Below are positions 3,504-47,717 of a stretch of DNA of 64,000 nucleotides, piece by piece (position 1 is the first letter of the stretch; each line of letters begins with the position of its first letter). Origin of the DNA: Malacoraja senta (taxonomy: Eukaryota); NCBI GenBank assembly GCA_038087875.1, contig CM075988.1, positions 19,656,001 through 19,720,000 of the forward strand, read 5' to 3'. The translations under genes were made by a program, and so were the position numbers. Under the pieces are notes generated by a model, which saw only the letters and a program-made list of their open reading frames with translations, did no database searches and had not been told where the DNA came from.

Positions 3504-4232
3504 GGTAGACAAAAGTGCTGGAGAAATTCAGCGGGTGCAGCAGCATCTATGGAGCGAAGGAAATAGGCAGCGTTTTGGGCCGAAACCCTTCTTCAGACTG
3601 ATGGAGGGTGGGGGGGGGGGGGCGGGGCAGGGAGATGAAAGGAAAATGGAAGAGGAGGAGCCCAAGGGCTGAGGGAGACCTGAGAAGGGGAGGAGACAGC
3701 AAGGGCCACCGGAAATTGGAGAATTCAATGTTTATGCCGCTAGGGTGCAGACTGCCCAAGCGGAATATGAGGTGCTGGCTATGAGACTTTCCGGTGGTGC
3801 TCACTCTGGCCATGGAGGAGGCCCAGGACAGAGATGTCAGATTTGGAATGGGAGAGGGAGTGCTGAGAGGGAGAGGGAGGTCAGATTGGTTAATGCGGAC
3901 CGAGCGGAGGTGTTCGGCGAAACGATCGCCAAGCCTACGCTTGGTCTCACCGATGAGATCAGCTGACATCTAGAGCAGCGGATGCAATAGATGATGTTGG
4001 AGGAGATGCAGGTGAACCTCTGTCACACCTGGAATGACTGTTTGGGTCCTTGAATGGAGTCGAGGGGGGAAGTAAAGCGACAAGTGTAGCATCTCTTGCG
4101 GTTGCAAGGGAAAGTGCCCGGGGAGGGGGTGGTGCGGGAGGGAAGGGAAGAATTGACAAGGGAGTTACGGAGGGAGCGATCTTTGCGGAAAGCAGACAGG
4201 GGGGAGATGGGAAGGTGTGGCGAGTGGTGGCT
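3504..4232 (-). mobile_element. Penelope-like retroelement 3' portion (GIY-YIG endonuclease remnant plus terminal repeat)
   Basis: Encodes IGETKRRLGDRFAEHLRSVR and QHLIFRLGSLHPSGINIEFSNF, with frameshifts; followed by the CTGAAGAAGGG...terminal repeat ending TTTTGTCTACC. Confidence 0.85.
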
Positions 4233-4990
4233 GAGTCATTGAGATTCTTCAAGGCAGCGATCAACTGAGACGTAGTCACTGGGAACAACCACTAGAATGG
4301 AACTGAGGCCAAGACCAACCATCCATGTTGATATGGAACGACTGGACATATCTGAGTAACCTACATGTGGTTGATTCCTGCTGCTTTCTCATATGGCAAA
4401 ATGGGATCAGATCACTGTGACCATAAATAAATGTTCCAATGTCTGGCTTTTTCACAAGTGCTTGACATCAGGCTGCCTTCCATAAGCAAGCTACTTGACG
4501 CTGGTTGTAGGATGGGTAGTTTGGCAAAGGCTGGATGTGAAAAGATTAATCAGTACAAATCAAGGAAATCAACTCCTAGAAATTGAAACTACAAGGCGCA
4601 ATTTAAAGTTACAGTACTTCTTGTTGATTTAACTCTCAATTCAGTTGGATTTTCCATCTCGACCAATGTAATTAATTAATGAAAGAAACGGATTCATTTG
4701 TGTGGCTCCGATTGTTTATTGAAAAAACTTATTAAACTATATTCCAGCAAATAAATAAATTCCAGGAGCCTTACTTAAACAAGAGAAACTGTGTTTTATT
4801 AAATCGCTTTATCATATCACACGTAATATACAATTATGTTGGAATAATTCAGTATGAATTATATTTTATCAATGACCTTTCAGCCAAAGACAAGCCAAGA
4901 TTGGATTGTGAGCTAAATGGAAAAGTAGTGATTATCATTGTTTATATATCTTTGTATCTTGCATTAGTTTGAAAATTGTCTTATTTGTAG

Positions 4991-5118: not shown

Positions 5119-6798
5119 GACAAATCATTGGCGTACACTTTGATGAGAATTTGTATAAACAGGAATTGCCTTATATCTCCACATGCTGTAATGTCTTACC
5201 TTATTGTCCAGGCTGTTTCCAACCAAGATTAAGTAAATTGGAAAGAAATAGTGGTTTGAATAAAGTCTCTGCGGAAGTGACAGTGATAAATGATGCAGAG
5301 CTGAGCACAGCGAGATTGCTGCTGCTCTGTACATTTCAACCTGCTTTCATTTCTGCCTGTGCAACAGAATAACTTGACAATTTACACTGCATTTTGTAAA
5401 GGGGAAACAAAATAAGTGGGAGATATTCTGCAAAATCGCAGCAACTTCATTTTACTTCTTAAACATGCCCCAGGATTCCTGCAAACAAAACGTTCCAATA
5501 TTGCGAATAAATAATATGAAAGTCAGAGACCCGTTTGGAATGTTCAGGCTTTTGCAGAAAATATTGCGGGCTTTTTCCATTGGCGAATGAAGTCTTGGAT
5601 GTGAAATTTGACAGCCCGGGTCTTCTGCTGCCCTGAGAGAGGTTCCATATTATAGGTTGCTGAACTTTCATTGGCTTTCACCAGAGAATAATGACTAGTT
5701 CCATCCTCTGATTCTGGATTGCACCACCAGACAATTACAATGGACGACCTATTGCACTATCATGGACTTGCTTGTCCTAAAAATAAACTACTGGAGGAAC
5801 TCAGGGGGTCAAGTCGCATCTGTGGAGGCAATCAAGTCTGAGGAAAGGTCTGACCTGAATTGTCATCTGTGCTTTTCCTTCCACGGATACTGCCTGGCCC
5901 GTTGAGTTTTTCCAGCACATTATAGTTAGGGCATCTCCCTTCCAATTCAGCTCCGGATTCCTGCATCTTCAGTTCCTAGTGTCTTGTAAATGTTTCTAAT
6001 TGTGTTCCCTGATGGGTTTTTTTAATTCTTCTTACTGTCTACCAGAATGTAGGTGTCATTTATGTATAATTTGTGTTGTTTTGTCTTTGTCTTAGTCTGT
6101 CTGCTAACGCAAGTAAGATTTTTCATTGTACCTGTGCTTTTCTGCACACGTACATACGGTAGGTTAATTGGCCTCTGTAAAATTCTCCCTGGTGTGTAGG
6201 GAATGGATGCATAAGTGGGATAACATTGGACCAGTATGAACAGGTGATCGATGGTCAGATGGACTCAGTGGGACGGAGGGTCTGTATCTCTAAACTAAGC
6301 TTAATTATGGCCAACCTATCTCTGTCATGTCCCTAGTGTCCACGTGGGATCTGCTCTGGGAGCCGCTCGCTAAATTGCACTCCACTTAGCAGCAGGTAGT
6401 TCCAATCCTCTAACGATGGTGAGAGGGGAACAACAACATTCTCTGCATGTCTGATGTGAGATTACCAATGGTTCACAGCAGAGTGTGGAGTGGGTATTCA
6501 AAGTCACAGCTTGTACACGCCCAGGTATACAAACGTACACATTAGGTCTCAGACTCACTCAGAGATTTGTTTAGTTTAGTTTATTGTCAAGTGTATAGTG
6601 AAAAGCTTTTGTTGTGTGCTAGCCAGTCAGCAAAAAGACAATACATGAGTACAATTCAGCCATCCACAGTGTACAGATACATGATAAAGGGAATAACATG
6701 AATAATGTTTAGTGCAAGATAAAGTTCAGTAAAGTCTGATCAAAGATAGTCCAACGGTCCCCAATGAGGGAGATAGGAGCCCAGGACTGCTCTCTAGT

Positions 6799-6891
6799 CT
6801 GAAGAAGGGTTTCGGCCTGAAACTTTGCCTATTTCCTTCGCTCCATAGATGCTGCTGCACCCGCTGAGTTTCACCAGCACTTTTGTCTACC
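6799..6891 (+). mobile_element. Solo Penelope terminal-repeat unit with hammerhead-like core, inserted in an older LINE tail
   Basis: Flanked by direct repeat ACTGCTCTCTAGT (6786-6798 and 6892-6904). Confidence 0.75.
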
Positions 6892-7895
6892 ACTGCTCTC
6901 TAGTTGTTGGTAGGATGGTTCAGTTGCCTTGGTTTTACTTTTGTCAGGAGTACCAAGATTTGTTTGTGATTTATTTGGATTGTGAGCTAACCAGTCAAAT
7001 CACATCACACTGTACCACCGTGCATTTAATGAAGAGATTGGGGATCTGATTGCAACCTCCACTCCACATTCCCATCTGCCTGTGGTAACCTTTCACCTCT
7101 TTACTTATCAACTATCAAACACCTCTCCCTTAAAAATATTCAAATATTCACAATTGCAATCTAATATTAATTTGCAGAGACAGAAATAAACAACTAGACA
7201 TGACTGAATTTCCAGACCAATGGATTTCCAGAGCCATTGAATATCAATATAGATATTTGCTCCATAGATGCTGCCTCACCCACTGAGTTTCTCCAGCATT
7301 TTTGTCTACCTTCGATTTTCCCAGTATCTGCAGTTTTCTTAAACAAAATATAGAAAATTAATTCACGTGTTTCTATCAAATTTTCTTTGCTAGGAAGTAA
7401 TACTTTTTTTACAGTTAAAATATCAAAATTAAAACATTCATTGACAGTCTATTTATCCTACCTTTCTGAAAAAATGCAAAATTGCATAAATTGTACAGAG
7501 GAATCAATCACCTAAAATATCGCCATCAGAATGAAAGCATCTGTCAATGCAATCCCGATGTAAAACTAAAGGTTCTGCTGAAGTAACTCAGCGGGTCAGG
7601 CAATATTTCTGGAGGACATGGACAGGCAATGTTTCAAGTCGGACCTTTCTTCAAAATCAATTTATTATTTTCATGTGTCCTGAGATGCTGTCTTACCTGC
7701 TGAGTTACCCCAGCACTTTATGTTTTACCATACAGCAAGGAAACAGGTCCTTCAACCCAGCTTGCCCATGCCAACCAAGGTGCCCATCTACATGAATCCC
7801 AGTTGCCGACATTTGACCCATATCCTTCTAAACGATTCCTATCCTTACATTTGGATGTAAGCAGGAAAACAGTCACAAATTATTGTATTCCCCCA

Positions 7896-17979: not shown

Positions 17980-18182
17980 TTTTGCGTATGGCGTGCACAG
18001 CCTAAAGTTGTGGGACAACTTGTTTTATTTGATCTTATTTGATTGTGCACGCCAGGTTGATTGCATTCGTCGAAACAGGGCGGACCACGTGAAGTCATTT
18101 GAAGTAGAGTTGGTGGATCTGAACCTGGCTGTGTGCAGAAGAATTTTCAGTTATTTTGATGAGTGACACATTTGCTGTGTTA

Positions 18183-18722
18183 AGGGGCTGTCCCACTTGG
18201 GCGACCTGATTGGCGAGTTTAGAAGAGTTTGAAAAAATGACATGTTGAAGACCTCCTTCGACCTTGTAGAAGACCTCCTTCGACTATGTTGAAGACCTCC
18301 TTCGACTATGTTGAAGACTAGCTACGACTAGCTACGACTAACTTCGGGAAAATTGGACATCGAATAGTGGAGAGTGAAGACGACCTCCTTCGATCTCCTT
18401 CGACCTCCCTTCGACTATGATGAAGACTATCTATGACTACCTTCGACTACCCTCGATTACCTGCGACTAACATGCCGACCTACTACGACTAAACCTACAG
18501 TAAAAAATGTATCGATTTTTTCCATGGCAACCTTTTTTTACTTTTAACATATTGAAAATAACGCCACGACCTAGCTGAGGCCTTGAGTACGCGGAGACCA
18601 CTCGAGCATGAAGGAGAGTTACGAAGACCTCCTACGACCTCGTGTCGACCATGCTGCGAGTATGAGTCGAGGGCAAACTCGCCAGAACTTGCGGATTAGG
18701 TCGCCCAAGTGGGACAGGCCCT
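18183..18722. mobile_element. PIF/Harbinger-like MITE
   Basis: 25-bp TIRs AGGGGCTGTCCCACTTGGGCGACCT (24/25 match), flanks TTA/TCA (3-bp TSD with one mismatch), CpG-rich internal repeats. Confidence 0.8.
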
Positions 18723-19207
18723 TCACAACTTGTAATGTGAGTCGTGATATATGTTTTCAAAATGTTGGTATCATTTGTGTAATAATATTTGTGTTGAATT
18801 TGCAATAGAAACATTTTTTACTTTGGACCCTGATTTGAGAGGACAGTGAAGGCATAACTTGCATATCACTTTCTATATCATCCCATAACACTTTACAGCT
18901 GGAGGTATTCTTAGAACGGCACAGTGGTGTATCAGTCAGTACCTGCTGCCTCACAGCTCCAGCTAACTAGGTTTGATACAATTTTCTGATGCTGGATTTG
19001 TGGAGTTTGCCTGTTCTCCCTGTGGCCACGCAGACTTCCATGAACATATCTGTTTGTTTTCTTCCCACATTCCAAAGCAATACTGATTGATTACAGTAAA
19101 TTACCCCAGGTGTGGGTGGTTTAGTTTAGGGTTAGGGATACACCGCAAGCCTAGTGCATTTCATGTGACACATATAAATTAATGGGTAAACTCACGTTGG
19201 CATCCAC

Positions 19208-19498
19208 TTACAGCACCAGAGACCCGGGTTCGATCCTGACCATGGGTGCTATCTGTCTGACGTTTGCACATTCTTCCTGTGACCGTGTGGGTTTTCTCCG
19301 GGTGCTCCGGTTTCTCCCCACATTCCAAAGATGTGCAGGTTTGTAGGTTAATTGGCTTCTGTAATATTGCCCCTAGTGTGTGGGCTGCAAAACTGGGATA
19401 ACATAGAACTAGTGTATGGGTGATCATTGGTCGGCATGGACTCAGTGGGCCGAAGGGTTTGTTGTCATGCTATATCTCTAAACTAAACCAAACTAAAA
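19208..19498 (+). mobile_element. HE1-like V-SINE (an older decayed copy lies at about 18918-19130)
   Basis: SINE consensus match. Confidence 0.8.
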
Positions 19499-20755
19499 AC
19501 TCTCCCACCCGAACTGTTCCACTCAGAAACGTTGCTCAAGCAACCAAATGCCAACCAGGCTGGTAATCAGCAATCCCAACATAGCCAGTTTTCTCTATTT
19601 CCCTGTGCACCTAAAAAAAATAACGGTTCAGGGTCCAATGATGACATTCCTATTAAATATTGATGACTTTGCGATCAACAATTGTGCTGTTATTTTAAGG
19701 CCCAATTTGATGCCTGTGAGCAAATTCACAATGACATCTTGAAGATTTTCTTCTTAGATAACTTCTTTAGCCAGAATCCAAAATTTCTGATTACACGAGT
19801 GTATTTTTTCTTATCATTGCTCAAGTTCAATTTTCTACTTCTTCCAACTATTTCATTCCAACTCCATTATGAAGGTCAGGGAATTATTTCAATTTACTGA
19901 GGTGACAATTTTGTGGATTTTCAATTCATCACAGTGGTCAAACACAGAGCTGACAGTAAACAAATATTTAGTTTGACTTTAAAGTGTGAAGTCTTGTCTC
20001 CTTGTTGTGCCTCTCAAGACCAATGGAAAAAAAGAAAGTAAGAGTGGAATCCATCCATTCCTTAGAGTACCGCCCTGCAGATGAATGCGATCGTGGATAA
20101 TCATCCAAACATATTCATTGATCCTGCTTTCTTCCCACACCACATGATCTATTAGCCTTGATCTATAAATATATCTAATTTATTTCCATGCCTCATCATC
20201 CTTTATTATTTGTCCTTCCACCACAAGAATCAGTCTAGTCAACTTTTGCATCTTCAGATAAAGAATCCAGAAATGGACTGAAGTGTGCTTGAAGGTTTTG
20301 TATAATTGCAGCAAGACATCTCTCCTCTTATACTTACCATCTCTTGGATCTCCTATCTCCCTCATTGGAGACCCTCGGACTATCTTTAATCGGACTTTAT
20401 CTTGCACTAAACGTTATTCCCTTTGTTCTGTACGCTCTGGACCGTAATCATGATTGTAATCATGTATAGTCTTTCTGCTAAGCTTTTCACTGTACCTCGG
20501 TACATGTGACACAGAACTAAACCAAACTAACATAACCTAAACTAAACTAAACTTGAATCCTGCTGCTGTGAAGACTAACACTTGCCTTATTATTCAGCCA
20601 CTGCAGCTCTGTTTAATATTTCAGGTCCATGGTCTGTCAAAACTGTTCCGACATAGGTTCTTGCATCTGAGACATTAGCACTGTTTCTCTTTCCACAGAT
20701 GCTGCCTGACCTGCTGAGAGTTTGCAGCATTTTCCGTTTTCATTCCACGGTTCAT

Positions 20756-20898
20756 GCCACCATGCTGATGAACACTGTCTGGTGCCATGGCCAAAAAAAC
20801 ATGGTCTGGCTCGATGGCAATAAACTCTCTGCTACCATGGCGATAATCACCGTCTGTTACTATGGCGACAAATAAATACTGTCCACTACCATGGCGAT
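20756..20898. promoter_or_regulatory. Degenerate tandem array of six RFX X-box-like motifs
   Basis: GTTACTATGGCGAC, GCTACCATGGCGAT, ACTACCATGGCGAT and three weaker units at 23-29 bp spacing. Confidence 0.4.
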
Positions 20899-21035
20899 GA
20901 ACACATTATAACACCATGTAAATACAGTAGGTGCCTCTGAAACAAGTTAGAAAAATATTAATGATAGACACAAAATCCTGGCGTAACTCAGTGAGGCAGG
21001 CAGCATTCCTGGAGAAATAGGATACATGACATTTC

Positions 21036-21590
21036 GAGTGGCTGCCTCGTCAACAGTCTGTCTCGTCCCTTTCTTCTTTGTTGTTTTTTAGTATGTGCTG
21101 GAGGTATGTTTTAGTGCTCTTTAGCTTTGTTATATGTGGGGGGTGGGTTGGGGGAAACTTTTTTTAAATCTCTTATCCGTACTACGGCCTAACATCGTGG
21201 AGCTGGCGGGCTCTTGCTGGGGACCGACTTCGGGAGCCTGCAGGACTTAACATCGTGGAGCTGGCGATCCCTGTCTGGGATCGACCTTGGAGCTCCAACC
21301 TTGGAGGTCTGCAGACTTTAGCATCATGGAGCTCGTGGTCCCTTGGGCTAGGGACCGACTTTGGGAGCTTCGACTGCCCCGACCGCGCGAGAATAAAGAG
21401 GGAAGAAGGTTGGACTTTATTGCCTTCCATTACAGTGAGGAATGTGGGGATCCGCTGTGGTGGATGTTTATGTTAACTTTTATGTAGTTGTGTGTCTTGT
21501 TGCTTTTTTTTAGTATGGCTGTAAGGTAAATCGTATTTCACCGTACCTTAATTGGTACACGTGACAATAAAATACCTTTGAACCTTTGAG
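21036..21590 (+). mobile_element. Non-coding retroposon with internal ACATCGTGGAGCT repeats and a LINE-type 3' tail
   Basis: Interrupts a Penelope terminal-repeat unit; ends GTACCTTAATTGGTAC-ACGTGACAATAAA then (ACCTTTGA)2. Confidence 0.55.
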
Positions 21591-21663
21591 GATGTGCTTT
21601 GAACAACTCAAACTGTAAATACAGCAAAAGGTAGAGTTTGTGCAGCTGTGTAGTTTAACTGAT

Positions 21664-22061
21664 GGTACACAAAAATGCTGGAGAAACTCAGCGGGTGCAG
21701 CAGCATCTATGGAGCGAAGGAAATAGGTAACGTTTCGGGCCGAAACCCTTCTTCAGACTGCTTTTTTTTTTTTTTTTTGGGTAAGGATGTGGTCGTAGAG
21801 TTGGAGGGCAGGGGGGATCACAGAGATGGGGCAGTTAGAGAGTTGGGTGTGGAACAGTCTCCGGAGAGAGGAGAACTTCTTCAAAGTAGGCATACCTTGA
21901 CGAGATTTCGCAGTGGAGTAGACAAAGTGTTAAAGAAGGAACTGCAGATGCTGGAAAATCGAAGGTACACAAAAATGCTGGAGAAACTCAGCGGGTGCAG
22001 CAGCATCTATGGAGCGAAGGAAATAGGTAACGTTTCGGGCCGAAACCCTTCTTCAGACTGG
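21664..22061 (-). mobile_element. Penelope-derived cassette: two identical 97-bp hammerhead-like terminal repeats 300 bp apart
   Basis: 21664-21760 is identical to 21964-22060; 11-bp TSD GTTTAACTGAT (21653-21663, 22062-22072); internal short ORF start MPTLKKFSSLRR followed by an A17 tract. Confidence 0.85.
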
Positions 22062-23884
22062 GTTTAACTGATTATTCTTCAAGATGTTTTGATGTAACAC
22101 TCGCATGGCTGCACGTTTCTGTTGATTGCATCTTGTTTGATTATTGATTAATTAAGCATGAAACAGTTAATCAGCTGTCGATGCCCCCAATGTTATCAGT
22201 GATGTTGAAATCATCCATAAACGTGTCGCCAAGGATCAGAGATGTGAAAAGCAGCATCTTCGCATACACCCAACAGTCTGCAGACACAACATCCAAGCAA
22301 ATGACCCATTGTCAAGGAAAAGGCGCTCAGACCAATCTGATCCAACTTCACTGCAGTATATGGGGTGAACGCACAGTCTATTTCCCAGGGTAGGCGATTC
22401 AGAAACTAGAAGAAAGGTTTAAGGTGACAGGGGTATGAGTTTGCATTTTAAGTTTACAGACAAGCACCTGACTACAGGTGCTTGTCTGTACGGAGTTTAG
22501 ACGTTCTCCCTGTGACCCTTGGGTTTTCCCCAGGTGCTCCGGTTTCCTCCCACATTCCAAACACGTGCGGGTTTGTAGGTTAATTGGCTCCGGTAAAGAT
22601 TGTCCCGAGTGTGCAGGATAGTGCTAGTGTACGGGTGTCGCTGGTCAGCGTGGACATGGTGGGCCGAAGGGCCTGTTTCCAAACTGTATCACTCAACTAA
22701 ACTATTGCTAGAAGACCATTGATTCAGTCAAAGCCATCCTTTGGTCGGCCCAAAACATGGTCTTCCTGTACAGTGAGATGCCCGTGAGGGAAATCTGCTT
22801 CCCGGCACATTGCAGGATGCTCAGTGAAGCTCAGTGCATCCGACACAAAGGCTTTGTGTGGAAGGACTGCACTCCAAGGTCCCTCTGCCTCTCGACATTG
22901 AAGGCTAAGCCCTGTGAAGAAACACTTGTACTTTGTATAATCCCAGGAGGCCACATAACTAGCAATGATATTCTGTAGACAAAATATGCTTGCACTACCA
23001 ATGCATAGACCCCAAAGCAATATGATGCTATATTTTTATTATTGTCATGTATATCGAGATACACTGATGAACTTTGTTTGCAGGCCATCCAGTCAAAATC
23101 ATGCTTAAAAGTAACAGGTGGAAAGTTTAAAAAAGATGGGTGAGAAAATATTTTTACACAGAGGGTGTAGGGTGTCTGGAACTCACTGCCAAGTGTGGTG
23201 GTAGAGGCAGATACGATAGTGGTGTTTCAAAGTCTTTTAGATAGCACATGGATATGTAGGGAATGAAGGGATATAGATCACATGCAAGTTGTGGAGATTA
23301 TTTTATCATGGCATCGTGTTCAGCACAGTCATTGTGGGCCAAAGGGCCTGTTCCTGTGCTGTCCTTTCCTAAGTTCTATGTTCTGTATCCCGACCTGCAC
23401 TCCCCCTCACCACTTAATGCTCCCGGATTGTAATCATTCACCGGAACAGATGTGTTGTGATCGAATTTTCGAATTGCCTTGAAGACAGAATGGAAGGATT
23501 GCAGGGAGCTGGAATGGACAGTGCCGACCAGACTGCGGCGATGCTGTAGTCAGCATGATTGCACTCTTATAACAAGGAAAAGTGTCTAAAGAGTGAAGTG
23601 TTACTTCATGGAGAGCTGTTGCAGGTCAGAGAGTACGTTCTCCTCTGAATTCCTTTGTCAACACAATTAACCAGTGAAATTGCTTTTAATCCTTACCCAC
23701 TCAATATTGATTACATAAAGAGTTCTGCCACTGACTTCAGTCGAGATAGTTTTATTGACCTTCATTTCAACCTAAAATGTAAATGTTTCTGTAAACTTCA
23801 TTTCCCTCTTCTGGAAGGCTGAGAATTCAGAGGCGGCCAATATTAATGGGTCTGTTGCTCTGAATCCCAAACCCTTTACTCACA

Positions 23885-24345
23885 ACGTCTGTGGCCAACA
23901 TGATGCCAAGATAAACTCATCTCTTCTGCCTGCATGTGATCCATATCCCTCCATTCCCTAGATATCCATGTGCTATCTAAGAGTCTCTTAAATGCCACTA
24001 TTGTATCTGCCTCCACCACCACCCCTGGGCAAGAAACCTGGACTTTCCTTGCAGTGGGGTCATGGAGGCATGGGGGATAAAGACTCTGTGCATTTGCCCT
24101 ATCTATTCCCCTTACAATTTTATACACAAGATCACCCCTCAGCCTCCTGCGCTCCAAGGAATAAAGTCCAGGCCTACCCAACTTCTCCCTACAGCTCAGG
24201 CTCTCGTGTCCTGGCAATATCCTCGTAAACCTTCTTTGTATCCTTTCTAACTTGATGGCATCCGTCTCAGAACAGGGTGACCAAAACTGAACACAATACT
24301 CCAAATGTCTTGTACGATTGTAATATATCATCCCAACTTCTATAC
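23885..24345 (-). mobile_element. CR1-type LINE 3' fragment
   Basis: HLEYCVQFWSP...LERIQRRFTRILPG...LERRRLRGDL. Confidence 0.85.
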
Positions 24346-26230
24346 TCAGTTGCACACAAAATGCAGGAGTCATTCAGTGGGACAGGCAGCATCTCTGGTA
24401 AAAATAGGTAGGTGCAATTTTTAAGAACGGGACCCTTCTTCATACTTCGTCAAATAGGTCCTGATTCGAAATGCCACATTCATTTTCTCCAGTGATGCTG
24501 CCAGACCCGCTGAGTTACTCAAGCATTTTGTGTCTATTTTTTATATAAACCAGCATCTGCAGTTCCTTTATATTACACTCTACACTCAGTTCCCTGACTA
24601 TAATTTGATATTTTTCCATTACTGGTTTTGCTTCGAGGGTGCTCAGAGGAAATGTTACGATGTAATGATTCAAGGAGCAAGAGCGAATAATGTTGTGAGT
24701 GAGTGGGTCTGGTCAATTGTGACAGAGTGGAGCTACAGTGTAACAAGTGCATCAACCAGCCCCGCTCCGAGGCTGGTGTGTTGTACCTGCTGGGACATTA
24801 CAGCCTCAAACACATTGCTCTGTAGTTCAAATGATTTCGACTTAAACACCAGCAAATGTTAACATTATGGACAAAATGGCAAAGAAGAATAAATTGGGTT
24901 TCAACCCCATAAAACCAGTTGGCTGATATTTCTAAAGAGGATTTTTTGCCTTTGGTCAAGTTTAAGATATTTACTGGTAGAAATGTATCTCTGGTTGTTA
25001 ATGCTAAATGGCATCAGATCGTCACTGTCTGCTGTGTCTACTCCATGAATGGCAACATCTGTGAGGGAATGATTAGGTTTAGGATTAGGTTTAGGTTTAT
25101 TATTGTCACAGGTTAGAGGCCTGGCAGGCAGTTGGCGATCGTGCCATTGCGAGTTCTGTGGAGAATTCCCCTTTAATAGGGACCTGAGGAGCAACCTTTC
25201 ACACTAAGAATGGTGGGTATATGGAACGAATTGCCAGAGGAGGTAGTCGAGGCAGGTACCATCATAACATTTAAAAAACATTAGGACAGGTACATGGATT
25301 GGATAGGTTTAGAGAGATGAGGGCCAAATGCAGGCAGGTGGGACTAGTGTAGATGGGGCATGTTGGTCAGCTTGGGCTCGTTGGGCTGAATGGCCTGATT
25401 CCACGCTGAATGACTCTATGACTCTAAAAACAGTTCGAGGTTGAACGGGCAACTGGCACAGAGACCTCAACAACGAAGGACAATGAGGACTTCACCCTGG
25501 CCCAGGGGCGATCTATGGCTGTGCAGCCTCCTTGCAGTCTTGAAGGCACCTTCTCCTTTCCTCCTCAGTGTTGTTCATGTAAAACTGATTAGCAAAATCC
25601 CAGTGCTGTGTGCTACATTAGTTAATCTTCCATCACCAGATGCCGCTTGAATCTCTAATTTAATTACTATAGCAGGTCGCAACCGTTTTAATTCATTAAT
25701 TTCAAGCCAATTTATAATTTGATGGTAATTTGAAGTATGTAAACAACTTTGCATTTTTAAAACACGGCTTGTAACACCGGTTCATGCCAAGAAAAGGCAA
25801 AGAGCTTAGAGTTGCCTTGGGCAGCAGTGGATTAATTTATATGCAATTCTTATTATTATTTTAGCAGCAAATTAACCATTTAGTACAATTTCAAAACATG
25901 CTTGGTTCATGAGCAAGAAAATTATAAAGAAATTGGATTAAAAATATCCCAATTTAACCTGTTATCGATTTCATGAAGTTAACTCGAAGAAGAAAACGAA
26001 TGCACCATAATCTAAGGTGTTGCAGGAGGAAGCACCTTGTGAGTTGTATGTGGCACAAAGAGTTTAAATGACTCTTGTGCAAGACGATATCTCAGACAGT
26101 GTACACTCTCCCTAGACTCAGAGATTCTCCCCCAATGAAACCGTAGGTTGGACAGGCACGCACTATTCTCTGGGTTAAAACTTGCTCTGCACACCTCCTT
26201 TAAAATTACCCCTCTCACCTTAAACCTTGA

Positions 26231-28920: not shown

Positions 28921-30911
28921 ACTGACATCAAGTCTGGGGCAACTTCAGTAACAGTACATCATCAAACAGGGTGAGTAGGCCAATCAAACATCATGCACAA
29001 CAACCAGGCAGTTAAATGAAGCACTGGTGCCCAATGCAAAACCCACAGATGATGGAAGTCTGAAGTAACAACTGAAAATCATAGGTCAGGCGGATTCTTT
29101 AGAGAGAAAACAGAATTAACATTACTGATATGTAAAATCTATTCGAGGTCGTTAGATATAGGTTTAGGTTATTATTGTCACGTGTACCGAGGCACAGTGC
29201 AATGCTTTGTTTTGCATGCTGTCCAATTAGATCAGGTAATACAATCAATAAATACAATCAAGCAAAACTCAAGTACAATAGGCACAGCAAAGGGGAAGAA
29301 TATAGTTCAGAGTGCAGAATATAGTTCTCAGCATTGCAGCGCACACAGTTCCACAAAGTCCAATGTCCAGTGGGGTAGAGGTGAATTGGACTGTAACCCA
29401 GTTTATGGCAGGACCGTTCAGAAGCCTGATAGCAGAGAAGAAGCTGTAACTGATGCTTTCATGCTTTTGTATCTTCTGCCCAACAAGAGCAGGGAGAAGA
29501 AGGAATGACCAGAGTGGGACAAGTCTTTCATTATGTTGGCTGCTTTTCTGAGGCCGCGCAATGTATAGATGGAGTCAATGGCAGAGATTCTGGTCTGTGT
29601 GTATTTTCAATCATTGGGACATTCACATGGGATTGGAGCAGAAGCTGAAATCAGGAGACTTACCCAAAAAAAAAAAAAAAAAAGACCTTTTCTTTTTTAC
29701 CTTGGAGTTTGTAATCGGTATGCTGAGAGAATGATATTTTTCAAGGCAAAAGAATCTTCCAGCAGTAATTATGGCTGAATACATTGTTAAAACTGCCTTC
29801 ACATAACAATTAACAAGGCAAAACTCTTCACTTCCTGTAAGATACTTCCTGTTTTACGGTGAGAATGTAAAGTTGAACTTCACATCACATCATTAATTCG
29901 GCGTTGACTGCATCGGTGGAGACCATGACAGGAATTAGGTATTGCTGACTATAGCCTCTGCTTTCTGTGCATTTACAGGCTCGAGAAATACAGTAGCTGT
30001 CAGCTTAAGAGTAATGATGGGAAAAGCTGGCAGATTGTCCTTCATTTTAACTTCAAGAACTGGCCAGGACCTTTATAAAAACAACATTTTAAGATTATGG
30101 TTTTGCAAATTGCCAAGAACACTTTCTCTTTCACGAGTTCTGCAAAGGAGCATTAAATTAATGGGATTCATCGAGTGCTTTTCCCATTTCCAATACAGTG
30201 AATCTGAAATAACCCGTTAAATACACTTCCCGGTGATAAAATGGCATTTCATGAAACACCAGTTTCCACAGGTGAATCCATTATTTAAATTGTAAAGAAC
30301 TTCAATTGCAGCAAGAATATTTCTCAGCTGAAATATGCAGAGAAATTTGCAGTAGGCTGGTGCGTGGATGGCTCTGCAGATTCTTATCATCCACAAATAA
30401 AAAATGTAAGTCAAGCCAGCATAAGGATTTGTGGCCCAATGTGTAAATGATCTGATGTAAACACCCAGCTGTGAGGTGAACAACTTCCATACTTTCATCG
30501 AATGAGCAAGAAATCGCAGAGAGTTGTAGATGTAGACTAGTCCATCACACAGAGCAGTCTTGCCACCATTGTCCCGCACCGGACAATCCTACTTCTCCCT
30601 GCTCCCGTCGGGCAGAAGATTCTGAAGCTTGAAAGCGCGCGCTTCTGAATGGTCCTTTCATCCCCTAGGGTAATGTTCAAATCACCTTTACGCTATTGTG
30701 GACATTGGACTTTGTTTATGGAACTGATGCGCTACAATGCTGAGAATTATATTCTGCACTCGGTACCTTCCTCTTTGCTCTATCTATTGTACTTGAATTT
30801 TGCTGGATCATATTTATACATTGTATTAAATGATTTGTGTAGGAAGGAACTGCAGATGCTGGTTTAAACCGAAGATAGACATTTGATTGGATAGCATGCA
30901 AAATAATGTAC

Positions 30912-31139: not shown

Positions 31140-34100
31140 GTACCTCGATACACGTGATAATAATAAACCTAAACCTAAGATGTCACCGAAAGCGTGAAGA
31201 GAATCTACATGCTAATGGAAGCAAGACAAAGGTTTGATGAAATGCTCAATAGTGGGTCAAATTGGAACTTTAAGAATCTCAACATCATCCTAAACAGAGC
31301 AGCAGGCAAGTTCAATATTAGTTTTTGTTCTTTGGTTGCATTAAGGGCTTCGGTTTTGCACAATTATGGTTACCTAGTATTATGATTATTAATTTGTTGT
31401 TATTATTGATTATTATATATTTAACTATGTGTTATTGCATTATGTTGTGAATCTGTGGAATTCTATGCCTCAGAAGGCAGTGGAGGCCGATTCTCTGGAT
31501 GCTTTCAAAAGAGAGTTAGATAGAGCTCTTAAAGATAGTGGAGTCAAGGGATATGTGGAGAAGGCAGGAAGGGGAGTACTGATTGTGGATGATCAGCCAT
31601 GATCACAGTGAATGGCTCAAAGGGCCGAATGGCCTACTCCTACACCTATTATCTAATGTCTATTGTCTATTATAGGCCTGTTAAACCTGGGTTTACTCTA
31701 GGTGCTCCGGTTTCCACCCACATCCCAAAGACGTGTGGGTTTGTACGTTATTTGGCCTCTGCAAATTGCCCCCAGTGTGTAGGGAGTGGATGAGGAAACC
31801 GGAACAGGCAGCATCTCTGGAGAGAAGGAATGGTTCGAGACCCTTCTTCGGACCCTTCTCTTCAGAGATGCTGCATGTCCCACTGTGTTACTCCAGCTTT
31901 TAGTGTCTATCTTCGGTTTAAACCAGTATCTGCAATTCCTGCCTACACACACGTTCTAACACTCTAACAGGATTTCAATGGGAAGCTCTCAGCAGCAATA
32001 TTCAGCAATAATTCAATTGTGTTTACCAAAGGATCCATCCACTGAGTCCTTCTATGGATGGATTTATGATAGTTGATGCATAATTTAACTTAAATATTTA
32101 TATTCTCCCATTATTTATTTTCCAGGCCCTGGGCTTTACTTGAGAGAGCGATGGAAAGTCATCTCTGTGACCTGCCGCAGTCCTTGGGGTGAATGTACTT
32201 CCACTCCACAGTTGGGGAGGAAGGTCAAGAATTCAGAACCAGCAACAGTCAATATTCAAAATCATAATCTTGTACCCACAACAGTCCACCTTTTGTTGCT
32301 ACTATCTGCACGGTTTACATCTTGGATGTTTAAATCAGAGGATCATACAAAATTTAAGACATAGAAGCAGCCAAGTTTGCTCATCAAGACCAAGCCAGTC
32401 ACAGTCATACAGCTGTACAGCACAAAAACAGGCCCTTTGGCCCACCTTGTCCATGCTGACCAAGTTAGCATACTGGACTGGCACACTGGCATTTGGTCCA
32501 TAGCCCTCTGAACCCTTCCTTGAATCCTGGAAACACAGATAGGTGCGACAAGTGTAGATGGGGCATGTTGGTCGGAGTAGGCAAGTTGGGCCTGTTCTAT
32601 GCCTCATGACTCTGTGGGTATCATGATCCCAATAGCTTCCATCAACTCTCACATCTGACAGTTGCAACACTTCACATACCCTGCCATGCCTTCACTAGAA
32701 TAATTATTTATCTAATTCCATCACTAGTATCCTTAGGTATCTCACCAAAGCCACTTACTCATCAAAGTCTGCTCTCTGTGCCCTCTGCGTTGTGCGCTAA
32801 ATATGCATCATGCTTTTAGTTCTTAGCTAGCAATTTATTTGTGTCGCCTGAGCTCGATGAACACATTCTGGTTTGTTACCCAGTGAACGGAAGTCAAAGT
32901 TCCAAAACTGCAAAATTAAGAAGCCTCAAGTTTAGATCTGAATTAATAAAAAATGTACAAAATGTATAAACTCACCCCCTTACCGAAGTCCTCGCTCTAT
33001 GGATGTTGCACTTCGGGGACCTCGTGTTCAGACGAAACCAGGTACTGCTCAAAATTCAACGATAATGCCCCATGCTGAAGTTGAAGTTGTGTCCCGAGGT
33101 ACTGTGAAAACCTATTTGTTGCATACTAACCAGTCAGCGGAAAGACAATGCATGATTACAATCGAGCCATTCACAGTGTGTAGTTTCACGATAAAGGGAA
33201 TAACCGTCAGTGCAAGATAAAGTCCAGTGAAGACATATTAAAGATAGTCCGAGGGTCTCCAATGAGGTAGATGGTAGCTCAGGACCTCTCTCTAGTTGTT
33301 GATAGAGTGGTTCTGGTGCCCGATAACAGCTGGGAAGAAAATGTCCCTGAATCTGGAGGGGTGTGTTTTCACACTTCTGTACCAGTTGGCAGGCGGTGGT
33401 GGTGGGGTGTCTGTAAACAAACAGTAGAAGTCCGGGAATCCAGATGACGGAAGAAGGGTCTCAACCCGAAACGTCACCTATTTCTTTTCCCCTAGGTTGC
33501 TGTGTGACCCGTTGAGTTACTCCAGCTTTTTGTGTCTAACTTATAGTTACAATTTATGAGTTGACGCAACCAATAACTCATGACTAATGAGGTCAAGTGG
33601 TGAGATATGTTTTCTGCTGTAAGCGCCGTTGAAGATTATGTCTATGGTTATTTCTGTCCATCAAAATGAATAGTGGTCACCTGGGACATCCCAGTGAACA
33701 TTGCCACTTACCGCGTAACAGAGAGGCCTCGTTCTTCATTATGTTTCCCCTTTATGTCACAAAATTAAGTCGACAAAAAATTGCCCATGTTAACGATCGA
33801 TGCAACACAGTTCTGGTGTACAGACAACGACACCATCAATCTTTTTCGGTTGTCATTATAAAGTTATCTCCGAGTTGCTCATAAGCATTAACGCATTGCA
33901 AGAGATGAGGCTCGCAGATTCTCTTGCTTCAAGAGCAGGGAAACTTTGGATAACTGGCAGAAGTGGTAAAACGTCGTTGGATGCTGGGAATACTCGGAGG
34001 GTCAAGAGGCACACTGATGATGGGGCCACTGGACTTCTTTAAAAAAAACTCATCTGATTCACTTTAGCTCAGTGAAGGAGGACTTTGACCATTACGTGAC

Positions 34101-34278: not shown

Positions 34279-34609
34279 TGGCGGCAGCGTGGCACAGCTG
34301 GTAGAACCGCTGCCCCACAGCGCCAGAGATCCAGGCTCGATCCTGACCTTAGGTGCTGTCTGTGTGGAGTTTGCATCTTCTCCCTGTGACCACGTGGATT
34401 TCCACTGGGTGCTCCGGTTTCCTCCAACATCCCAAAGCCGCATGGGTTTGTACGTGGATTGGCCCTCTGTAAATTGCCCCAGTGCGTAGGGATGGAAGCA
34501 AATGTGGGATAACAGAGAACTGGTGTGAATGGGTGATCGATGGTTGGCATGGACCCAGTGAGCTGAAGGGCCTGTTTCCATTCTGTATCTCTAAACTAAA
34601 CTAAACTAA
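34279..34609 (+). mobile_element. HE1-like V-SINE, full length (truncated duplicate at 47918-48192)
   Basis: SINE consensus match. Confidence 0.85.
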
Positions 34610-35859
34610 GCCTCATATTGCTGGAGAAACATATTATCCTATGCAGAACTAAGGATGGCAGGAGAATTGCTCTTCCTGTTTCTCAAATATTTCATAGAGA
34701 CATACAACATGGAAACAGGCCTTTCGGCCCAACTCATCCATGCTGACCAAGATGCCCGATCCAACCTAGTCCTTTTGTCCTGCATTTGGCTCATATCCCT
34801 CTAAACCTTTCCTATCCATGAATCTGTCCAAATGTCTTTAAATGTTGTTATTGTTGTTGGCTCAAATGTTGGTTATGGTAGCCATGATCACATTGAATGG
34901 CGGTGCTGGCTCGAAGGGCCGAAGGGCCGAATGGCCTACTCCTGCACCTTTTGTCTATTGTCTATTGTCAACTATTGCCTCTGGCAGCCCGTTTCATATC
35001 CCCACCACATGCCCCGAGACAACTTTGTCCTCCAAGGTACATCCAACATTGACTGCAGATGTAACATTTTCAAGGTTCACACTGTTTAGCTTGTTTAAGC
35101 ATTGGCCGTACATTGACTTATTCTGTGATAATAGTCAGCTCTCCGCTGCTTAGATACACAGACACAGATCAATATTTCATTTTGATGGTATTGTTAGAAC
35201 TGACATAAGAAATAACTCACAAGAATTGTGCCCATCCCATGAACGTGCAATAGGGTTGATTATGTGTTGGCCAATGATCCTGAGATAATCAAACACCATG
35301 TTGAAATCCCATCATTCATGGCAGTCGTGTTGACGTGTGACACAATGATCCGTTCCTGTGGTGTTTGTCTCAGTAACTGTAACCTGGCAGTTCTCTTCCT
35401 CAGGAATAAACCTACTTCAATTAAACTTGAAACCCACTAGCGTGCGTGCAACTAATCCTGAACGGCAATTGATTAGGTTTACAAGTGACAAATCTTATTT
35501 CAGGCACATTTCAATTAAACACTTTTAATTTTATGCACGTTTTAACCAAATCTTTCACGTCCTTCACATCTTGTCTGTAAATCTTCAGATTTGTTCTACT
35601 TCATAATGCTGCAGCAACAAATAACTCACTTGTAACTGCCATTCCTCCTACCTACCACACACTAAATACGTGACAAACTAAAGTGTGTATTGAACTCCAT
35701 TTCCATTCCACTGAAGCCTACAGAACAATAGTTTACAAGTTCCTGCAAGACACAAAATGCTGGAGTAACTCAACGGCACAGGCAGCATCTCTGGAGAGAA
35801 GGAATGGGTGACGTTTCCATGGGTCGAGACGCTTCTTCAGACTGAAGAGCTCTGAAGAT

Positions 35860-36505
35860 CTGTTCTGGGCCCAGCACATTGATGCAATCAGGTCATCAGT
35901 GCCACCAGTTCCTTAGAAGATTGAGGAGATTCAGTGTGTCAAACCCCTACAGGTGCACAGCAGGCAGCATACTGACGGGTTGCATCAAGACCTGGCTCAG
36001 CAACTCGAATGCCCAGGAATGAAGGAGATTGCACAGAGTGGTAGACACTGCCCGGTCCATCACAGACACTGACCTCCCCACCATTGAAAGGATCCACAGG
36101 AAGCACTGCCTCAAAATGGCAGGTAATATCATCAGAGAACCACACCCCCCCCGACCATGCTCTCTTCTCATTTCTGACTCCAGCAAGAAGGTACAGGAGC
36201 CTGAAAACCATGACCTCCTGGTTGAAGAACACTTCCTTCCCAGCAACCATCAGGCTTTTGAACACTGCACGACACTAACCTCAGCAACTATGATCTTCTA
36301 TTAACCGTGTCTTTGGTTGCACTACAGACTTCAGTTTTGCACTGTTATGCTAGTTTAGTAATAGTTATTAATTAATTGTATTATTGATTATCATACAGTA
36401 TATTTATCTCTGCGTTACTGCATTTACAGCCTGTTAAGTTGCAGCAGGTAAGAATTTCATTGTTCTGTGCCTGGTATATATGACAATTAAATATTTTTGA
36501 CTTGA
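35860..36505 (+). mobile_element. Rex1/Babar-like LINE 3' fragment (duplicate at 49443-50088)
   Basis: RRYRSLKTMTSWLKNTSFPATIRLLN plus 3' UTR ending GACAATTAAA. Confidence 0.75.
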
Positions 36506-36846
36506 ATTCAAACTGCCTTTCTCACGACATCTCCAACTTAATGCATGCTGCAGAAGCAAATTTCTATTTTGCCCTGAGACGTTGGTGAAATTCAAAGAAA
36601 GAATTCAGGCTTTTCCGCCGTGCTTGAAATATCCAAGTGTACGAAGTGTCCCCTGCAATATTTGGATGATGAAATTGAGCTCAACAGTGGAGAAGGATGC
36701 ATCAGCACTTCTGTCAGGAACCACTTGAGTATCCGAGTGGAAGTCACAAAATGCAACACAGGCTGTGCTGATTTGGCTGAGGCACTTTTTGAGATATAAC
36801 TTGTTCTGACAACTGGCCTTGTGCCATTCAATGCGTCTCATTATTT

Positions 36847-37126
36847 GGGTGGCACGATGACGCAGTGGTAGTTGCTGCCTTACAGCACCAGAGACCCATC
36901 TTCGATCCTGTCTTCGGGTGCTGTCTGAACGGAGTTTGCATGTTCTCCCCATAACCTGCATGGGTTTTCTCAGAGATCTTCGGCTTCCTCCCACTCTCCA
37001 AAGATGTACAGGTTTGTATGTTAAATGGCTTGGTATAAATGTAGAATTATGTGTGTAGGATAGTGTTAATGTGCGGGGATCGCTGGTCGGTGCAGACACA
37101 GTGGGCCGAGGGGCCTATTTCCGTGC
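36847..37126 (+). mobile_element. HE1-like V-SINE (duplicate at +13583)
   Basis: SINE consensus match. Confidence 0.8.
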
Positions 37127-37489
37127 AGAATCCCCAAAAAATCAATTAGCTGATATCCATCACAGGGGACCTGAAACATCGTCTATCCATTCCCTCCACA
37201 GTTGCTGCCTGACCCACTCAGTTCCTCCAGCACTTTGTGATTTTGCTCAAGGTCCCAGCATCTGCACTTTTTGTGTCGCCATTAAGATGATATCCTCACA
37301 TTTGACTTTGAATAAGCCTGAAGACTTAGGACACGATATTTTCTGCTTAATTTTGCCATTGCTCTGCAGTTGAGATAACTGGAAAAAAAGTATTAGAATT
37401 AGCGCGGCACAGAGGCACAGATGCTGTCTTACAGCGCCAGAGATCCAGGTTCGATTCTGGCTATGCATGCTGTCTGTGGAGTTTGTAAC

Positions 37490-38233
37490 AAGTCAGAGTC
37501 ATACAGCATGGAAACAGGCCATTCAGCCCAACTCATCCATGCTGACCAACATGCATATCTGAGCATTTGCCTGCATATGCCCCATCTCCCTCTCAACCTT
37601 GGTCTGAAGAAGGGTCTCGACCCAAAATGTCATCCATTCCTTCTCTCCAGAGATGCTGCCTGTCCCACTGAGTTACTCCAGCATTTTGTGTCTACTTTCA
37701 ATTTAAACCAGCATCTGCAGTTCTATCCTACACATTCCCTCTCAACCTTTCCTGTTCATGTACCTGGTCAAATGTCTTTAAATGTATGTACCCACACCCA
37801 CAGTGTGAAAAAGTAATCCTTTGGGTCTCTATTAAATCTTTTCCCTCTCACCTTAAACCTATGCCCTTTAGTTTTAGATTCCCCTTCATTGGGACAAAGT
37901 GCATTCACCTTATCTATGCCTATGATTTTATACACCAAAGATCACCTTTCAGCATCCTGAGCTCCAAGGAATAAAGTCCCTGCCTGCCCATACTATACCT
38001 ATAGCTCAGGTCCTGGCAACATCCTCGGAAATCTTCTCTGCACTTTTTTCCGAGCATAATGGCATCCTTCTATAGCAAGACGATGAAAACTGAACCCAAT
38101 ACTCCAAGTGCGGTTTCATGAACATCTTGTACAACTGTAACATGATGTCCCAACTTCTATATTCAACTCCCTGACTGATGAAGGCCAGCGTACCAAAGGC
38201 CTTTTTCACCACCCTGTCTACCTGTGATGTCAT
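37490..38233 (-). mobile_element. CR1-type LINE 3' fragment with a nested Penelope terminal-repeat unit at about 37601-37735 (duplicate at +13583)
   Basis: QVDRVVKKAFGTLAFISQGVEYRSWDIMLQLYK; nested unit flanked by repeated TCCCTCTCAACCTT. Confidence 0.85.
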
Positions 38234-40563: not shown

Positions 40564-40945
40564 TAATAACAAGCAGCATGTCATTATTTTGCAATAATGA
40601 ACTAATAATAGTCTTAGTATCTGACAGTTTTTTAATCAAATATAATACACCAGCTTTGTTCTTAAAATAATGTCTGATAACATTGAAGTGCAGAGTGCTT
40701 ATCAATGATGTTAAAATGTAACATTTCGTTCAATCATCGCATAAATCTCTTGGTCATTAAGAATTCTTAAGCTATAATTACAGAGATGAACATAATTGAT
40801 AAGTTTTCAAATTGAAGTCTGCCACGGCATTTCAGTACTTTATAAAGTCATCACATTTTGCTCCCATAGTGACTGCTGACACGTCATTTCAGTTACGGTA
40901 TATTGAAATCAAGGAGGTTCTGACAATGACGTGGCTTAGTTAGAG

Positions 40946-43815: not shown

Positions 43816-43859
43816 TTTGGTTTGGTACTATTACGGTTACCTAGTGTTATGGTTATTAA

Positions 43860-47655: not shown

Positions 47656-47717
47656 CTCCATTCTTGATGCTACCCTCCATATGCAATCTGTTTAACAGAT
47701 GTCAGCCATGGGCAGAA

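What the first reader, a model, noticed from the sequence alone, without database searches (positions are those of the whole stretch)
21653..22072. Retrozyme-like cassette: two identical hammerhead-like repeats exactly 300 nt apart, flanked by an 11-bp TSD
Seen: on the minus strand each repeat reads CAGT-CTGAAGA-A-GGGT(TTCG)GCCC-GAAA-CGTT-ACC. That is a CUGANGA box, a 4-bp helix II with a UUCG loop, GAAA, and a palindromic AACGTT in place of helix III. The two copies are 97/97 identical and enclose a short ORF start (MPTLKKFSSLRR...) and an A17 tract. Established: Penelope-like elements carry minimal type I hammerhead motifs in their terminal repeats, thought to act as dimers, and tandem hammerheads in metazoan retrozymes release small RNAs that circularise. 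Inference: a transcript could pair the two motifs in cis, cleave near 22029/22028 and 21729/21728, and release a 300-nt monomer, making this a young non-autonomous retrozyme-like unit in an elasmobranch. Caveats: helix I is only 2 bp, there is an extra A after the box, and the triplet here is GUU rather than GUC.
Basis: partly seen in the sequence, partly recalled or inferred. Interest (0 to 1): 0.72.

Follow-up and report, generated by a model that had tools for sequence, protein, structure and literature searches.

The report
Penelope mini-insertion with two hammerhead motifs
This 400-base insertion is a young by-product of a very abundant Penelope-type jumping gene, most likely made when its copying enzyme ran off the front of a short, A-tailed RNA and restarted at the tail, so it is more a clue to how these elements build their repeats than a proven self-cutting RNA circle.

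Summary
In detail: two identical 97-bp repeats 300 bp apart, an 11-bp target-site duplication, an A17 tract and minimal hammerhead motifs. Both repeats start at the base where unrelated solo copies start and end at one of the family's two fixed 3' ends. The interior is the element's own tail, leader and first 39 codons, cut off by poly(A), with one extra G before the second repeat. Best reading (0.65): PLE reverse transcriptase primed internally 97 nt from the 5' end of a short polyadenylated PLE RNA, copied to that end, jumped to the poly(A) tail and copied the RNA again. The hammerheads were copied uncut and need play no part. A propagating circular retrozyme is not excluded (0.15): copy number of the poly(A) junction, cleavage and circles were not testable. 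Against it: 1.32 units only, termini at the presumed RNA end rather than anywhere on a circle, 2-bp helix I, predicted misfolding. A variant of a known class, useful for the open question of PLE tandem formation.

The parts
22062..22072 (-). Target-site duplication, 5' copy (11 bp)
   Evidence: exact match to 21653-21663; chance 2 of 200,000
22061..22061 (-). One extra base (C on the minus strand) at the 5' junction
   Evidence: present on contigs of runs X1 and X2
21964..22060 (-). Repeat R, 5' copy: 97-nt piece of the PLE terminal repeat, from the recurrent 5' start to the first recurrent 3' end
   Evidence: 91/97 and 90/97 identical to copies at 3504-3600 and 6795-6891
22027..22058 (-). Minimal type I hammerhead motif (core starts 22056, predicted cut 22029/22028), helix I of 2 bp
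   Evidence: no Rfam hit
21928..21963 (-). PLE 'tail', about 36 nt, between the two recurrent 3' ends of the family
   Evidence: window alignment ends cluster at reference positions 89-101 (14 of 33) and 124-138 (9 of 33); loose ends with heterogeneous AT-rich flanks at 21928 in X1, X2, X3 and at 21962-21963 in X18
21894..21927 (-). Rest of the PLE 5' leader
   Evidence: multi-copy in all 4 runs laid (table 2); no other copy in the window
21777..21893 (-). First 39 codons of the PLE ORF, ending where the A tract begins
   Evidence: best of 510 registers against 27 PLE N-termini puts its last residue on the first residue of their conserved N-terminal motif; moderate support only
21762..21778 (-). 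A17 tract, read as the poly(A) tail of a short PLE RNA; no AATAAA/ATTAAA in the 122 nt before it
21761..21761 (-). Single extra G between the A tract and the second repeat; candidate cap-templated base
   Evidence: family upstream base is T (copy at 3600; loose ends at 22060); cap-G precedent in L1 (PMC11702581)
21664..21760 (-). Repeat R, 3' copy (first-made cDNA segment in the model), with the second hammerhead motif (core 21756, predicted cut 21729/21728)
21653..21663 (-). Target-site duplication, 3' copy
3504..4264 (-). Reference copy: 5'-truncated, frameshifted PLE remnant (GIY-YIG endonuclease region, pyrimidine-rich 3' region, then R ending at the same base as in the finding)
6796..6891 (+). 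Reference copy: solo R of the same subfamily with its own 13-bp duplication, same start and end

Best explanation
A single retrotransposition event by the reverse transcriptase/endonuclease of an endonuclease-bearing Penelope-like element, acting on a short, prematurely A-tailed RNA of the same family. Steps: (1) a PLE transcript starts at the initiator-like sequence 3-4 nt before the hammerhead core (inferred), and one such RNA ends in poly(A) after 282 nt (inferred from the A tract). (2) The endonuclease nicks the target; the nick primes cDNA internally, 97 nt from the RNA 5' end, at one of the family's two fixed start sites (fixed ends shown here; internal priming shown for an anole PLE in vitro). 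(3) The enzyme reaches the RNA 5' end, adds one base (G in sense, as from a cap), jumps to the poly(A) end of the same or a sister RNA and copies it to the same 5' end (inferred). (4) Repair leaves the 11-bp duplication (shown). When step 3 has no jump, the product is a solo R like 6796-6891. The two hammerhead motifs are passengers copied from uncut RNA; the 300-nt spacing is just the RNA length plus one.
For: R is a PLE terminal-repeat piece: it follows a GIY-YIG remnant at 3688-4264 (tblastn E 3e-43 with P0008; P0008 carries GIY-YIG at 23.2 bits, cut-off 22.6, and a weak RVT_1 match). Fixed 3' ends: two other copies of the subfamily stop at the same base; ends cluster in two groups about 36 nt apart, the 30-40 nt 'tail' that lies between two internal priming sites in PMC11167929. 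Fixed 5' start: of 16 window copies reaching reference positions 1-4, 3 continue into upstream PLE sequence, 5 are head-to-head inverted pairs, and 8 (6 besides the finding's two) start there with no upstream homology (one of the 6, at 37602, scores slightly above background but is bounded by a 14-bp duplication). The start matches the recalled initiator consensus YYANWYY. Both ends of the interior fit a linear RNA: same 5' base twice, poly(A) at the 3' end, no second duplication around the R-interior-A block. Other genomic restarts at the same 5' end: 3 of the 10 family joints shown table 5c restart at R positions 0-2, 2 of them with one extra G in sense. In the anole system hammerhead mutants do not affect insertion and unprocessed RNA is the main substrate.
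Against: One locus; no RNA data (all 4 runs laid were contigs), so the start site, cap and poly(A) end are inferred. The base added at the final 5' junction is C, not G. No canonical polyadenylation signal precedes the A tract. The initiator consensus is weak (1.1% of positions) and the same bases also read as a 3' splice acceptor after a pyrimidine tract. The A-tract junction was not read, so many genomic copies of the junction are not excluded; the interior is multi-copy, and relatively deeper in X2 than in X1 (about 27-fold against 4-13-fold for the flank and neighbouring repeats), which I cannot explain. One of the 10 joints restarts exactly at the predicted hammerhead cut (depth 381 in X2), a hint that the family's hammerhead can cut in vivo. 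Only 12 of 257 rows of that table were shown. The 39-residue match to PLE N-termini is moderate: 0 of 300 shuffles reach it in register (best shuffle almost equal), but 18 of 60 shuffles reach it when the register is free, and 72 of 1000 reach it against a profile.
Confidence: 0.65

Rival explanations
1. Daughter copy of a propagating retrozyme: a 300-nt RNA released by the two hammerheads circularises and is copied by rolling-circle reverse transcription, here for 1.32 turns. The poly(A) junction would have been made once in an ancestor.
For: Two complete, identical motifs 300 nt apart, within the monomer range of animal retrozymes; duplication larger than 4 bp (PMC7229834). GUU is listed among active NUH sites (PMC3138052); the extra A and a 2-bp helix I both occur in PLE hammerheads (PMC4209133). 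Chondrichthyan retrozyme families average 363 bp in the 2026 preprint. A circle would hold all cis signals (R, tail, ORF start). One joint restarts at the predicted cut site.
Against: On a circle the copy could stop anywhere, yet it stops on the very base that follows the poly(A)+G junction, the same start as solo copies. No tandem array called; 1 copy of the junction in the window. Both motifs lack the 2 outer helix I pairs present in the full terminal repeat at 3596. Helix II probability is 0.00 in the 426-nt transcript and 0.005 in the circle; cis dimer costs 26.8 kcal/mol; the two motifs pair with each other in an inactive register. These are secondary-structure estimates only, and minimal hammerheads may need protein help. 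8 of 9 predicted Xenopus dimers did not cleave in vitro. A deeper R-ORF-start-R joint in X2 (depth 700) lacks an intact CUGA box, so such junctions do not need a hammerhead.
Confidence: 0.15
2. Two insertions at one spot: a solo R landed first, then an A-tailed PLE fragment (R, tail, ORF start, poly(A)) was inserted at its 5' junction, by PLE homing to its own terminal repeat or by a LINE enzyme acting on the poly(A).
For: PLEs tend to insert in or next to existing copies (PMC6765202); the anole enzyme cuts near its own ORF/terminal-repeat junction. Solo R copies are common. A poly(A) 3' end is the usual LINE priming site (own knowledge).
Against: No second duplication flanks the R-interior-A block; one duplication encloses everything. 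The repeats are 97/97 identical and share minority alleles (the base after the cut site differs in 71% of X1 and 82% of X2 depth), while two other subfamily copies differ at 6 and 7 positions.
Confidence: 0.12
3. DNA-level deletion of a full or partial-tandem PLE that removed almost all of the ORF between two terminal repeats (a gutted element).
Against: A deletion would leave upstream terminal-repeat sequence or microhomology at the junction; instead there is A17+G and the second repeat begins on the same base as the first. The region upstream of R in the parent is C-rich, not A-rich.
Confidence: 0.05
4. Assembly artefact (local duplication of 97 bp).
For: The window does hold a 13,383-bp, 100% identical duplication around a 200-N gap. 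The poly(A) junction was not confirmed by independent data.
Against: Clean 11-bp duplication, biologically meaningful ends, and the upper junction on contigs of 2 runs with 0 differences.
Confidence: 0.03

Closest known systems
Endonuclease-bearing Penelope-like elements (C-terminal GIY-YIG; Penelope/Poseidon/Neptune type) with pLTR, tail and internal priming (PMC11167929; PMC2377424; PMC8557442)
   Same: Terminal-repeat piece with minimal hammerhead, two 3' ends about 36 nt apart, direct-repeat partial tandem, target-site duplication, head-to-head inverted copies nearby, RT + GIY-YIG parent.
   Different: No coding capacity; the two repeats are joined through a poly(A)+G junction after 39 codons rather than through the ORF 3' end. 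I found no such junction described. Clade (Neptune or Poseidon) was not tested.
Animal non-LTR retrozymes (PMC7229834; bioRxiv 10.64898/2026.07.22.740005)
   Same: About 300-nt unit between two type I hammerhead motifs, non-coding, duplication longer than 4 bp, derived from a PLE terminal repeat.
   Different: 1.32 units, minimal rather than canonical hammerhead, internal poly(A), ends at the PLE start and priming sites; no evidence of a family, of cleavage or of circles.
pLTR-flanked captured sequences of Adineta vaga Penelope (PMC3846280)
   Same: Non-autonomous insert between direct terminal repeats inside one target-site duplication, mobilised in trans.
   Different: There the cargo is unrelated host DNA; here it is the element's own 5' region with an A tail.
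Minimal hammerheads of metazoan PLEs (PMC4209133)
   Same: CUGANGA box, one unpaired base before helix II, G-C first pair of helix II, palindromic stand-in for helix III.
   Different: Helix I only 2 bp (4-5 bp in the Schistosoma families; 2 bp is reported for the D. virilis variant); helix II closed by U.G with a competing hairpin that buries the GAAA box.

Membership tests
PLE-derived insertion (EN+ PLE) | Sequence belongs to an element encoding RT and C-terminal GIY-YIG | tested here: met
   R (91/97 identical) follows a GIY-YIG-region remnant at 3688-4264
PLE-derived insertion (EN+ PLE) | Optional 30-40 nt tail between two 3' ends | tested here: met
   two end clusters about 36 nt apart
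PLE-derived insertion (EN+ PLE) | Direct or inverted terminal repeats inside a target-site duplication | tested here: met
PLE-derived insertion (EN+ PLE) | Interior is the PLE ORF start | tested here: inconclusive
   best register at the conserved N-terminal motif, z 5.0, 0 of 300 shuffles in register, 18 of 60 with free register; direct searches found no convincing relative; contiguous with R and tail and multi-copy in 4 of 4 runs
PLE minimal hammerhead | Core boxes, unpaired base before helix II, G10.1-C11.1, palindromic helix III substitute, NUH triplet | tested here: met
   against PMC4209133; GUU listed as active site
PLE minimal hammerhead | Self-cleavage as dimer or with protein help | not testable with these tools
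   folding estimates are unfavourable; 1 of 10 joints restarts at the predicted cut
Non-LTR retrozyme | Tandem repeat called by TRF with at least two consecutive units bearing complete hammerheads | tested here: not met
   no 300-bp period called (tool's parameters differ from the preprint's); 1.32 units, though with two complete motifs
Non-LTR retrozyme | Canonical type I hammerhead with about 6-bp helix I and loop-loop contacts | tested here: not met
   helix I 2 bp; no Rfam hit. The 2026 preprint also accepts minimal motifs
Non-LTR retrozyme | Non-coding, duplication longer than 4 bp when present | tested here: met
Non-LTR retrozyme | Multi-copy family of the same unit | tested here: inconclusive
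   1 junction in the window; no genome held; junction not read
Non-LTR retrozyme | Expressed as self-processed linear and circular monomers | not testable with these tools
   no raw-read or confirmed RNA run of the organism was offered

The most novel reading that the evidence does not exclude
The locus is a captured intermediate of the general route by which PLEs build tandems and give birth to retrozymes: internal priming near the capped 5' end, then a jump to the poly(A) end, puts two hammerheads around any short PLE transcript in one step; this unit (or the related R-restart junctions seen at 4-29 times single-copy depth) then spreads further as a protein-assisted, hammerhead-released 300-nt circle that still carries its founder's poly(A) scar.
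Probability: 0.2. Interest if true: 0.7.

Novelty: new variant of a known kind. Interest (0 to 1): 0.4.

Why it matters
How PLEs regenerate their pseudo-LTRs and tandems is stated as unresolved (PMC2377424), and the in vitro work stops after internal priming (PMC11167929). Two routes are in print: circular templates after hammerhead cleavage (PMC4209133) and multimeric read-through RNA. This junction points to a third, a jump from the RNA 5' end to a poly(A) end, and makes it countable: in a genome with very many young copies one can tally what lies 5' of R at tandem junctions (poly(A)+G, cut site, or upstream terminal repeat). It would also give a one-step origin for retrozyme-like dimers. 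As a single locus of an abundant known family, it is modest.

Tried and rejected
Own-genome search: no genome held. Rfam 18000-26000: 4 chance matches, no hammerhead. Protein searches with the ORF start: 0 hits among 3 candidates; 4 hits in the representative library, multi-stretch matches, and the 3 of 4 I read were repetitive proteins, rejected; no usable Atlas hit; Pfam only a weak chance match. Pfam on the window's own frameshifted endonuclease pieces: no GIY-YIG hit; the assignment rests on homologues. Profile of 32 PLE N-termini against the 39 residues: not significant. DNA pattern scans for a parent element: 0 in metagenome contigs, 0 in viral contigs. The 24-bp match at 29659-29682 is 7 bases plus an A run without family context, rejected as chance. 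Host-gene context: 12 ORFs scanned, no credible Pfam family, Atlas blank for one; whether the insert lies in an intron is unknown. Empty-site allele: no skip joint among the 15 of 177 joints shown, untested. Depth figures were not used as copy numbers. The constrained active fold of the circle failed to compute and was dropped. PMC10018344 (one passage) was irrelevant; PMC5785218 is not held, title only seen in a reference list. Earlier-finding look-ups by place and by sequence were empty. Supplements were not read; those of the 2026 preprint are closed and may list this or a similar chondrichthyan unit.

Full report
Observation. The sequence is as described. An exact 97-bp repeat lies at 21664-21760 and 21964-22060, and an exact 11-bp duplication at 21653-21663 and 22062-22072. 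Such a word at both junctions arose in 2 of 200,000 random pairs. On the minus strand the order is duplication, one C, R, 185 further nt, A17, one G, R, duplication. The upper junction is on a contig with no differences in both runs of the window's organism that I laid, X1 and X2, though with only 25 letters on the repeat side. Rfam finds no hammerhead, but the motif has the traits listed for PLE minimal hammerheads, including the unpaired base before helix II and the palindrome in place of helix III (PMC4209133, parts 1-2 of 4 read).

What R is. R is not peculiar to this locus. nhmmer finds 45 places in the window, 33 after dropping 12 in an exactly duplicated segment. The copy at 3504-3600 is 91/97 identical and is preceded by a frameshifted remnant whose closest named relatives are elasmobranch proteins with RT and GIY-YIG matches (tblastn E 3e-43). 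R is therefore the hammerhead-bearing part of the terminal repeat of an endonuclease-bearing PLE. In the 4 runs laid, summed contig depth over R is some 10^5 times that of the unique flank and about 80- to 400-fold that of the interior (X2, X1); the tool warns that this is no copy number, so I read it only as very abundant R and a multi-copy interior.

Fixed ends. The finding's lower repeat ends on the same base as the subfamily copies at 3504 and 6891. Alignment ends fall at reference positions 89-101 in 14 of 33 places and 124-138 in 9 of 33; 10 end elsewhere. Loose ends with mixed, AT-rich flanks pile up at 21928 (57, 81 and 83 contigs in X1, X2, X3) and at 21962-21963 in X18. Two ends about 36 nt apart match the PLE tail, which in the anole element lies between two internal priming sites near the 5' end of the RNA (PMC11167929, parts 1-2 of 4 read). 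At the other end, 16 of 33 places reach reference positions 1-4. Of these 3 continue into upstream PLE sequence, 5 are head-to-head pairs and 8 begin there with unrelated sequence in front, 6 of them independent of the finding. Two have clean duplications: 13 bp at 6796 and 14 bp plus one G at 37602. The start matches the recalled initiator consensus, a weak motif (1.1% of positions); it also reads as a splice acceptor, but the AG is kept in the finding. An internal promoter in the terminal repeat is shown for Drosophila Penelope (PMC2377424, passages).

The interior. After R come the tail, 34 nt of leader and an ORF whose 39th codon runs into the A tract. Direct searches found no relative. 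Against 27 of 91 longer PLE proteins that carry a conserved N-terminal motif, the best of 510 registers places the last residue on the first residue of that motif (z 5.0; 0 of 300 shuffles in register, the best almost equal; 18 of 60 with free register); a profile test was not significant (72 of 1000). Together with contiguity to R, depth in all 4 runs and a sister sequence that diverges at 21868 (27, 34, 37 contigs), this is moderate support for the PLE ORF start. No polyadenylation hexamer precedes the A tract.

Mechanism. The simplest single event that gives every junction is internal priming at position 97 of a short A-tailed PLE RNA, copying to its 5' end, addition of one base, a jump to the poly(A) end and a second pass to the same 5' end. 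An extra G at full-length 5' junctions is ascribed to the cap in L1 (PMC11702581, one passage); its use here is inference, and the base at the final junction is C. Of the 12 rows shown out of 257 in the joint-letter table, 10 concern this family; 3 restart at R positions 0-2 without upstream sequence, 2 with one extra G in sense, 1 restarts at position 1 with upstream terminal-repeat-like letters, 1 restarts exactly at the predicted cut site, 1 (depth 700 against 24 for the flank) joins the ORF start back to R without an intact CUGA box, and 4 restart elsewhere. So restarts at the presumed RNA end recur, need no hammerhead, and one row hints that the family's hammerhead can cut. In the anole system hammerhead mutants do not change insertion and no reads began or ended at the cut site.

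The retrozyme reading. It is structurally possible: two motifs 300 nt apart, GUU among active triplets (PMC3138052, passages), unit length in the known range (PMC7229834, passages and Discussion; preprint 10.64898/2026.07.22.740005, parts 1-3 of 5). But a circle has no reason to stop on the base right after the poly(A)+G junction. Both motifs lack the two outer helix I pairs that the full terminal repeat at 3596 can form. In the 426-nt transcript the two motifs pair with each other out of register, helix II has probability 0.00 and the cis dimer lies 26.8 kcal/mol above the free fold; in the circle helix II is at 0.005. An older-subfamily copy at 33448 forms helix II well (0.85-1.0), two others poorly (0.33 and 0). 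These models ignore tertiary contacts and protein help. TRF calls no 300-bp tandem. The decisive count, copies of the poly(A) junction, could not be made: no genome is held, the junction was not read, and the window has 1 copy.

Other rivals. Two successive insertions would leave a second duplication or different repeats; there is one duplication and the repeats share the minority base after the cut site (other base in 71% of X1, 82% of X2, 95% of X3, 97% of X18 depth). A DNA deletion does not explain A17+G. An assembly artefact is unlikely, although the window contains one elsewhere.

Comparison and novelty. The locus is a PLE-derived insertion by every feature tested except the moderate ORF match. 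It works like a PLE partial tandem and looks like a retrozyme dimer, but fails two retrozyme tests (two consecutive units; canonical hammerhead) and the rest are untested. Closest precedents are terminal-repeat-flanked captured sequences in Adineta (PMC3846280, passages) and non-autonomous Chlamys elements (PMC8557442, passages). Three full-text searches returned no listing that describes a poly(A)-to-terminal-repeat junction in a PLE; the library lacks most subscription papers and I read no supplements. Earlier scan notes on other genomes reached similar by-product readings; they are unchecked and not independent support. Verdict: new variant of a known kind, interest 0.4.

Noticed in passing
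window 34335-47717 and 47918-61300: A 13,383-bp, 100% identical direct duplication on either side of a 200-N gap; most likely an unmerged overlap in the assembly.
   Followed up: partly
window 21653-21663 / 22062-22072: The first 6 bases of the duplication (minus strand) equal the family's own 6 bases just before the hammerhead core in the full terminal repeat at 3596; two other duplications (6796, 37602) show no such likeness. Unexplained, possibly chance.
   Followed up: partly
window 5783-5978, 7560-7720, 24351-24578, 31802-31958, 39336-39500, 40930-41144, 44632-44825: Head-to-head inverted pairs of the same PLE terminal-repeat family.
   Followed up: partly
window 43855-44302 (+): Second PLE remnant: endonuclease C-terminal piece followed by R of an older subfamily.
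   Followed up: partly
table 5c, run X2, joint 22053 to 21868: Another R/ORF-start/R junction of about 190 nt at depth 700 (flank 24) with a broken CUGA box: a candidate multi-copy or tandem non-autonomous PLE unit elsewhere in the genome.
   Followed up: partly
table 5c, run X2, joint 22027 to 21968: A restart exactly at the predicted hammerhead cut site (about 61-nt unit, depth 381): a lead for in vivo cleavage in this family; one row only.
   Followed up: partly
window 21765-21869: Interior depth is about 27- to 43-fold higher in X2 than in X1, against 3.6-fold for the unique flank; could be copy-number difference between samples or an effect of summing contigs.
   Followed up: no
window 21941-22010 (minus strand, R positions about 52-120): A hairpin pairs R with the tail; the first fixed 3' end lies in its internal loop and the second just downstream, a candidate for the priming-site structure.
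   Followed up: no
window 21380-21589: The left flank is itself another high-copy repeat ending in an 8-bp tandem at 21574-21589; not identified.
   Followed up: no
window 22455-22490 and 20774-20904: A perfect 16-bp inverted repeat with a 4-nt spacer, and a loose 25-29-bp direct repeat array.
   Followed up: no
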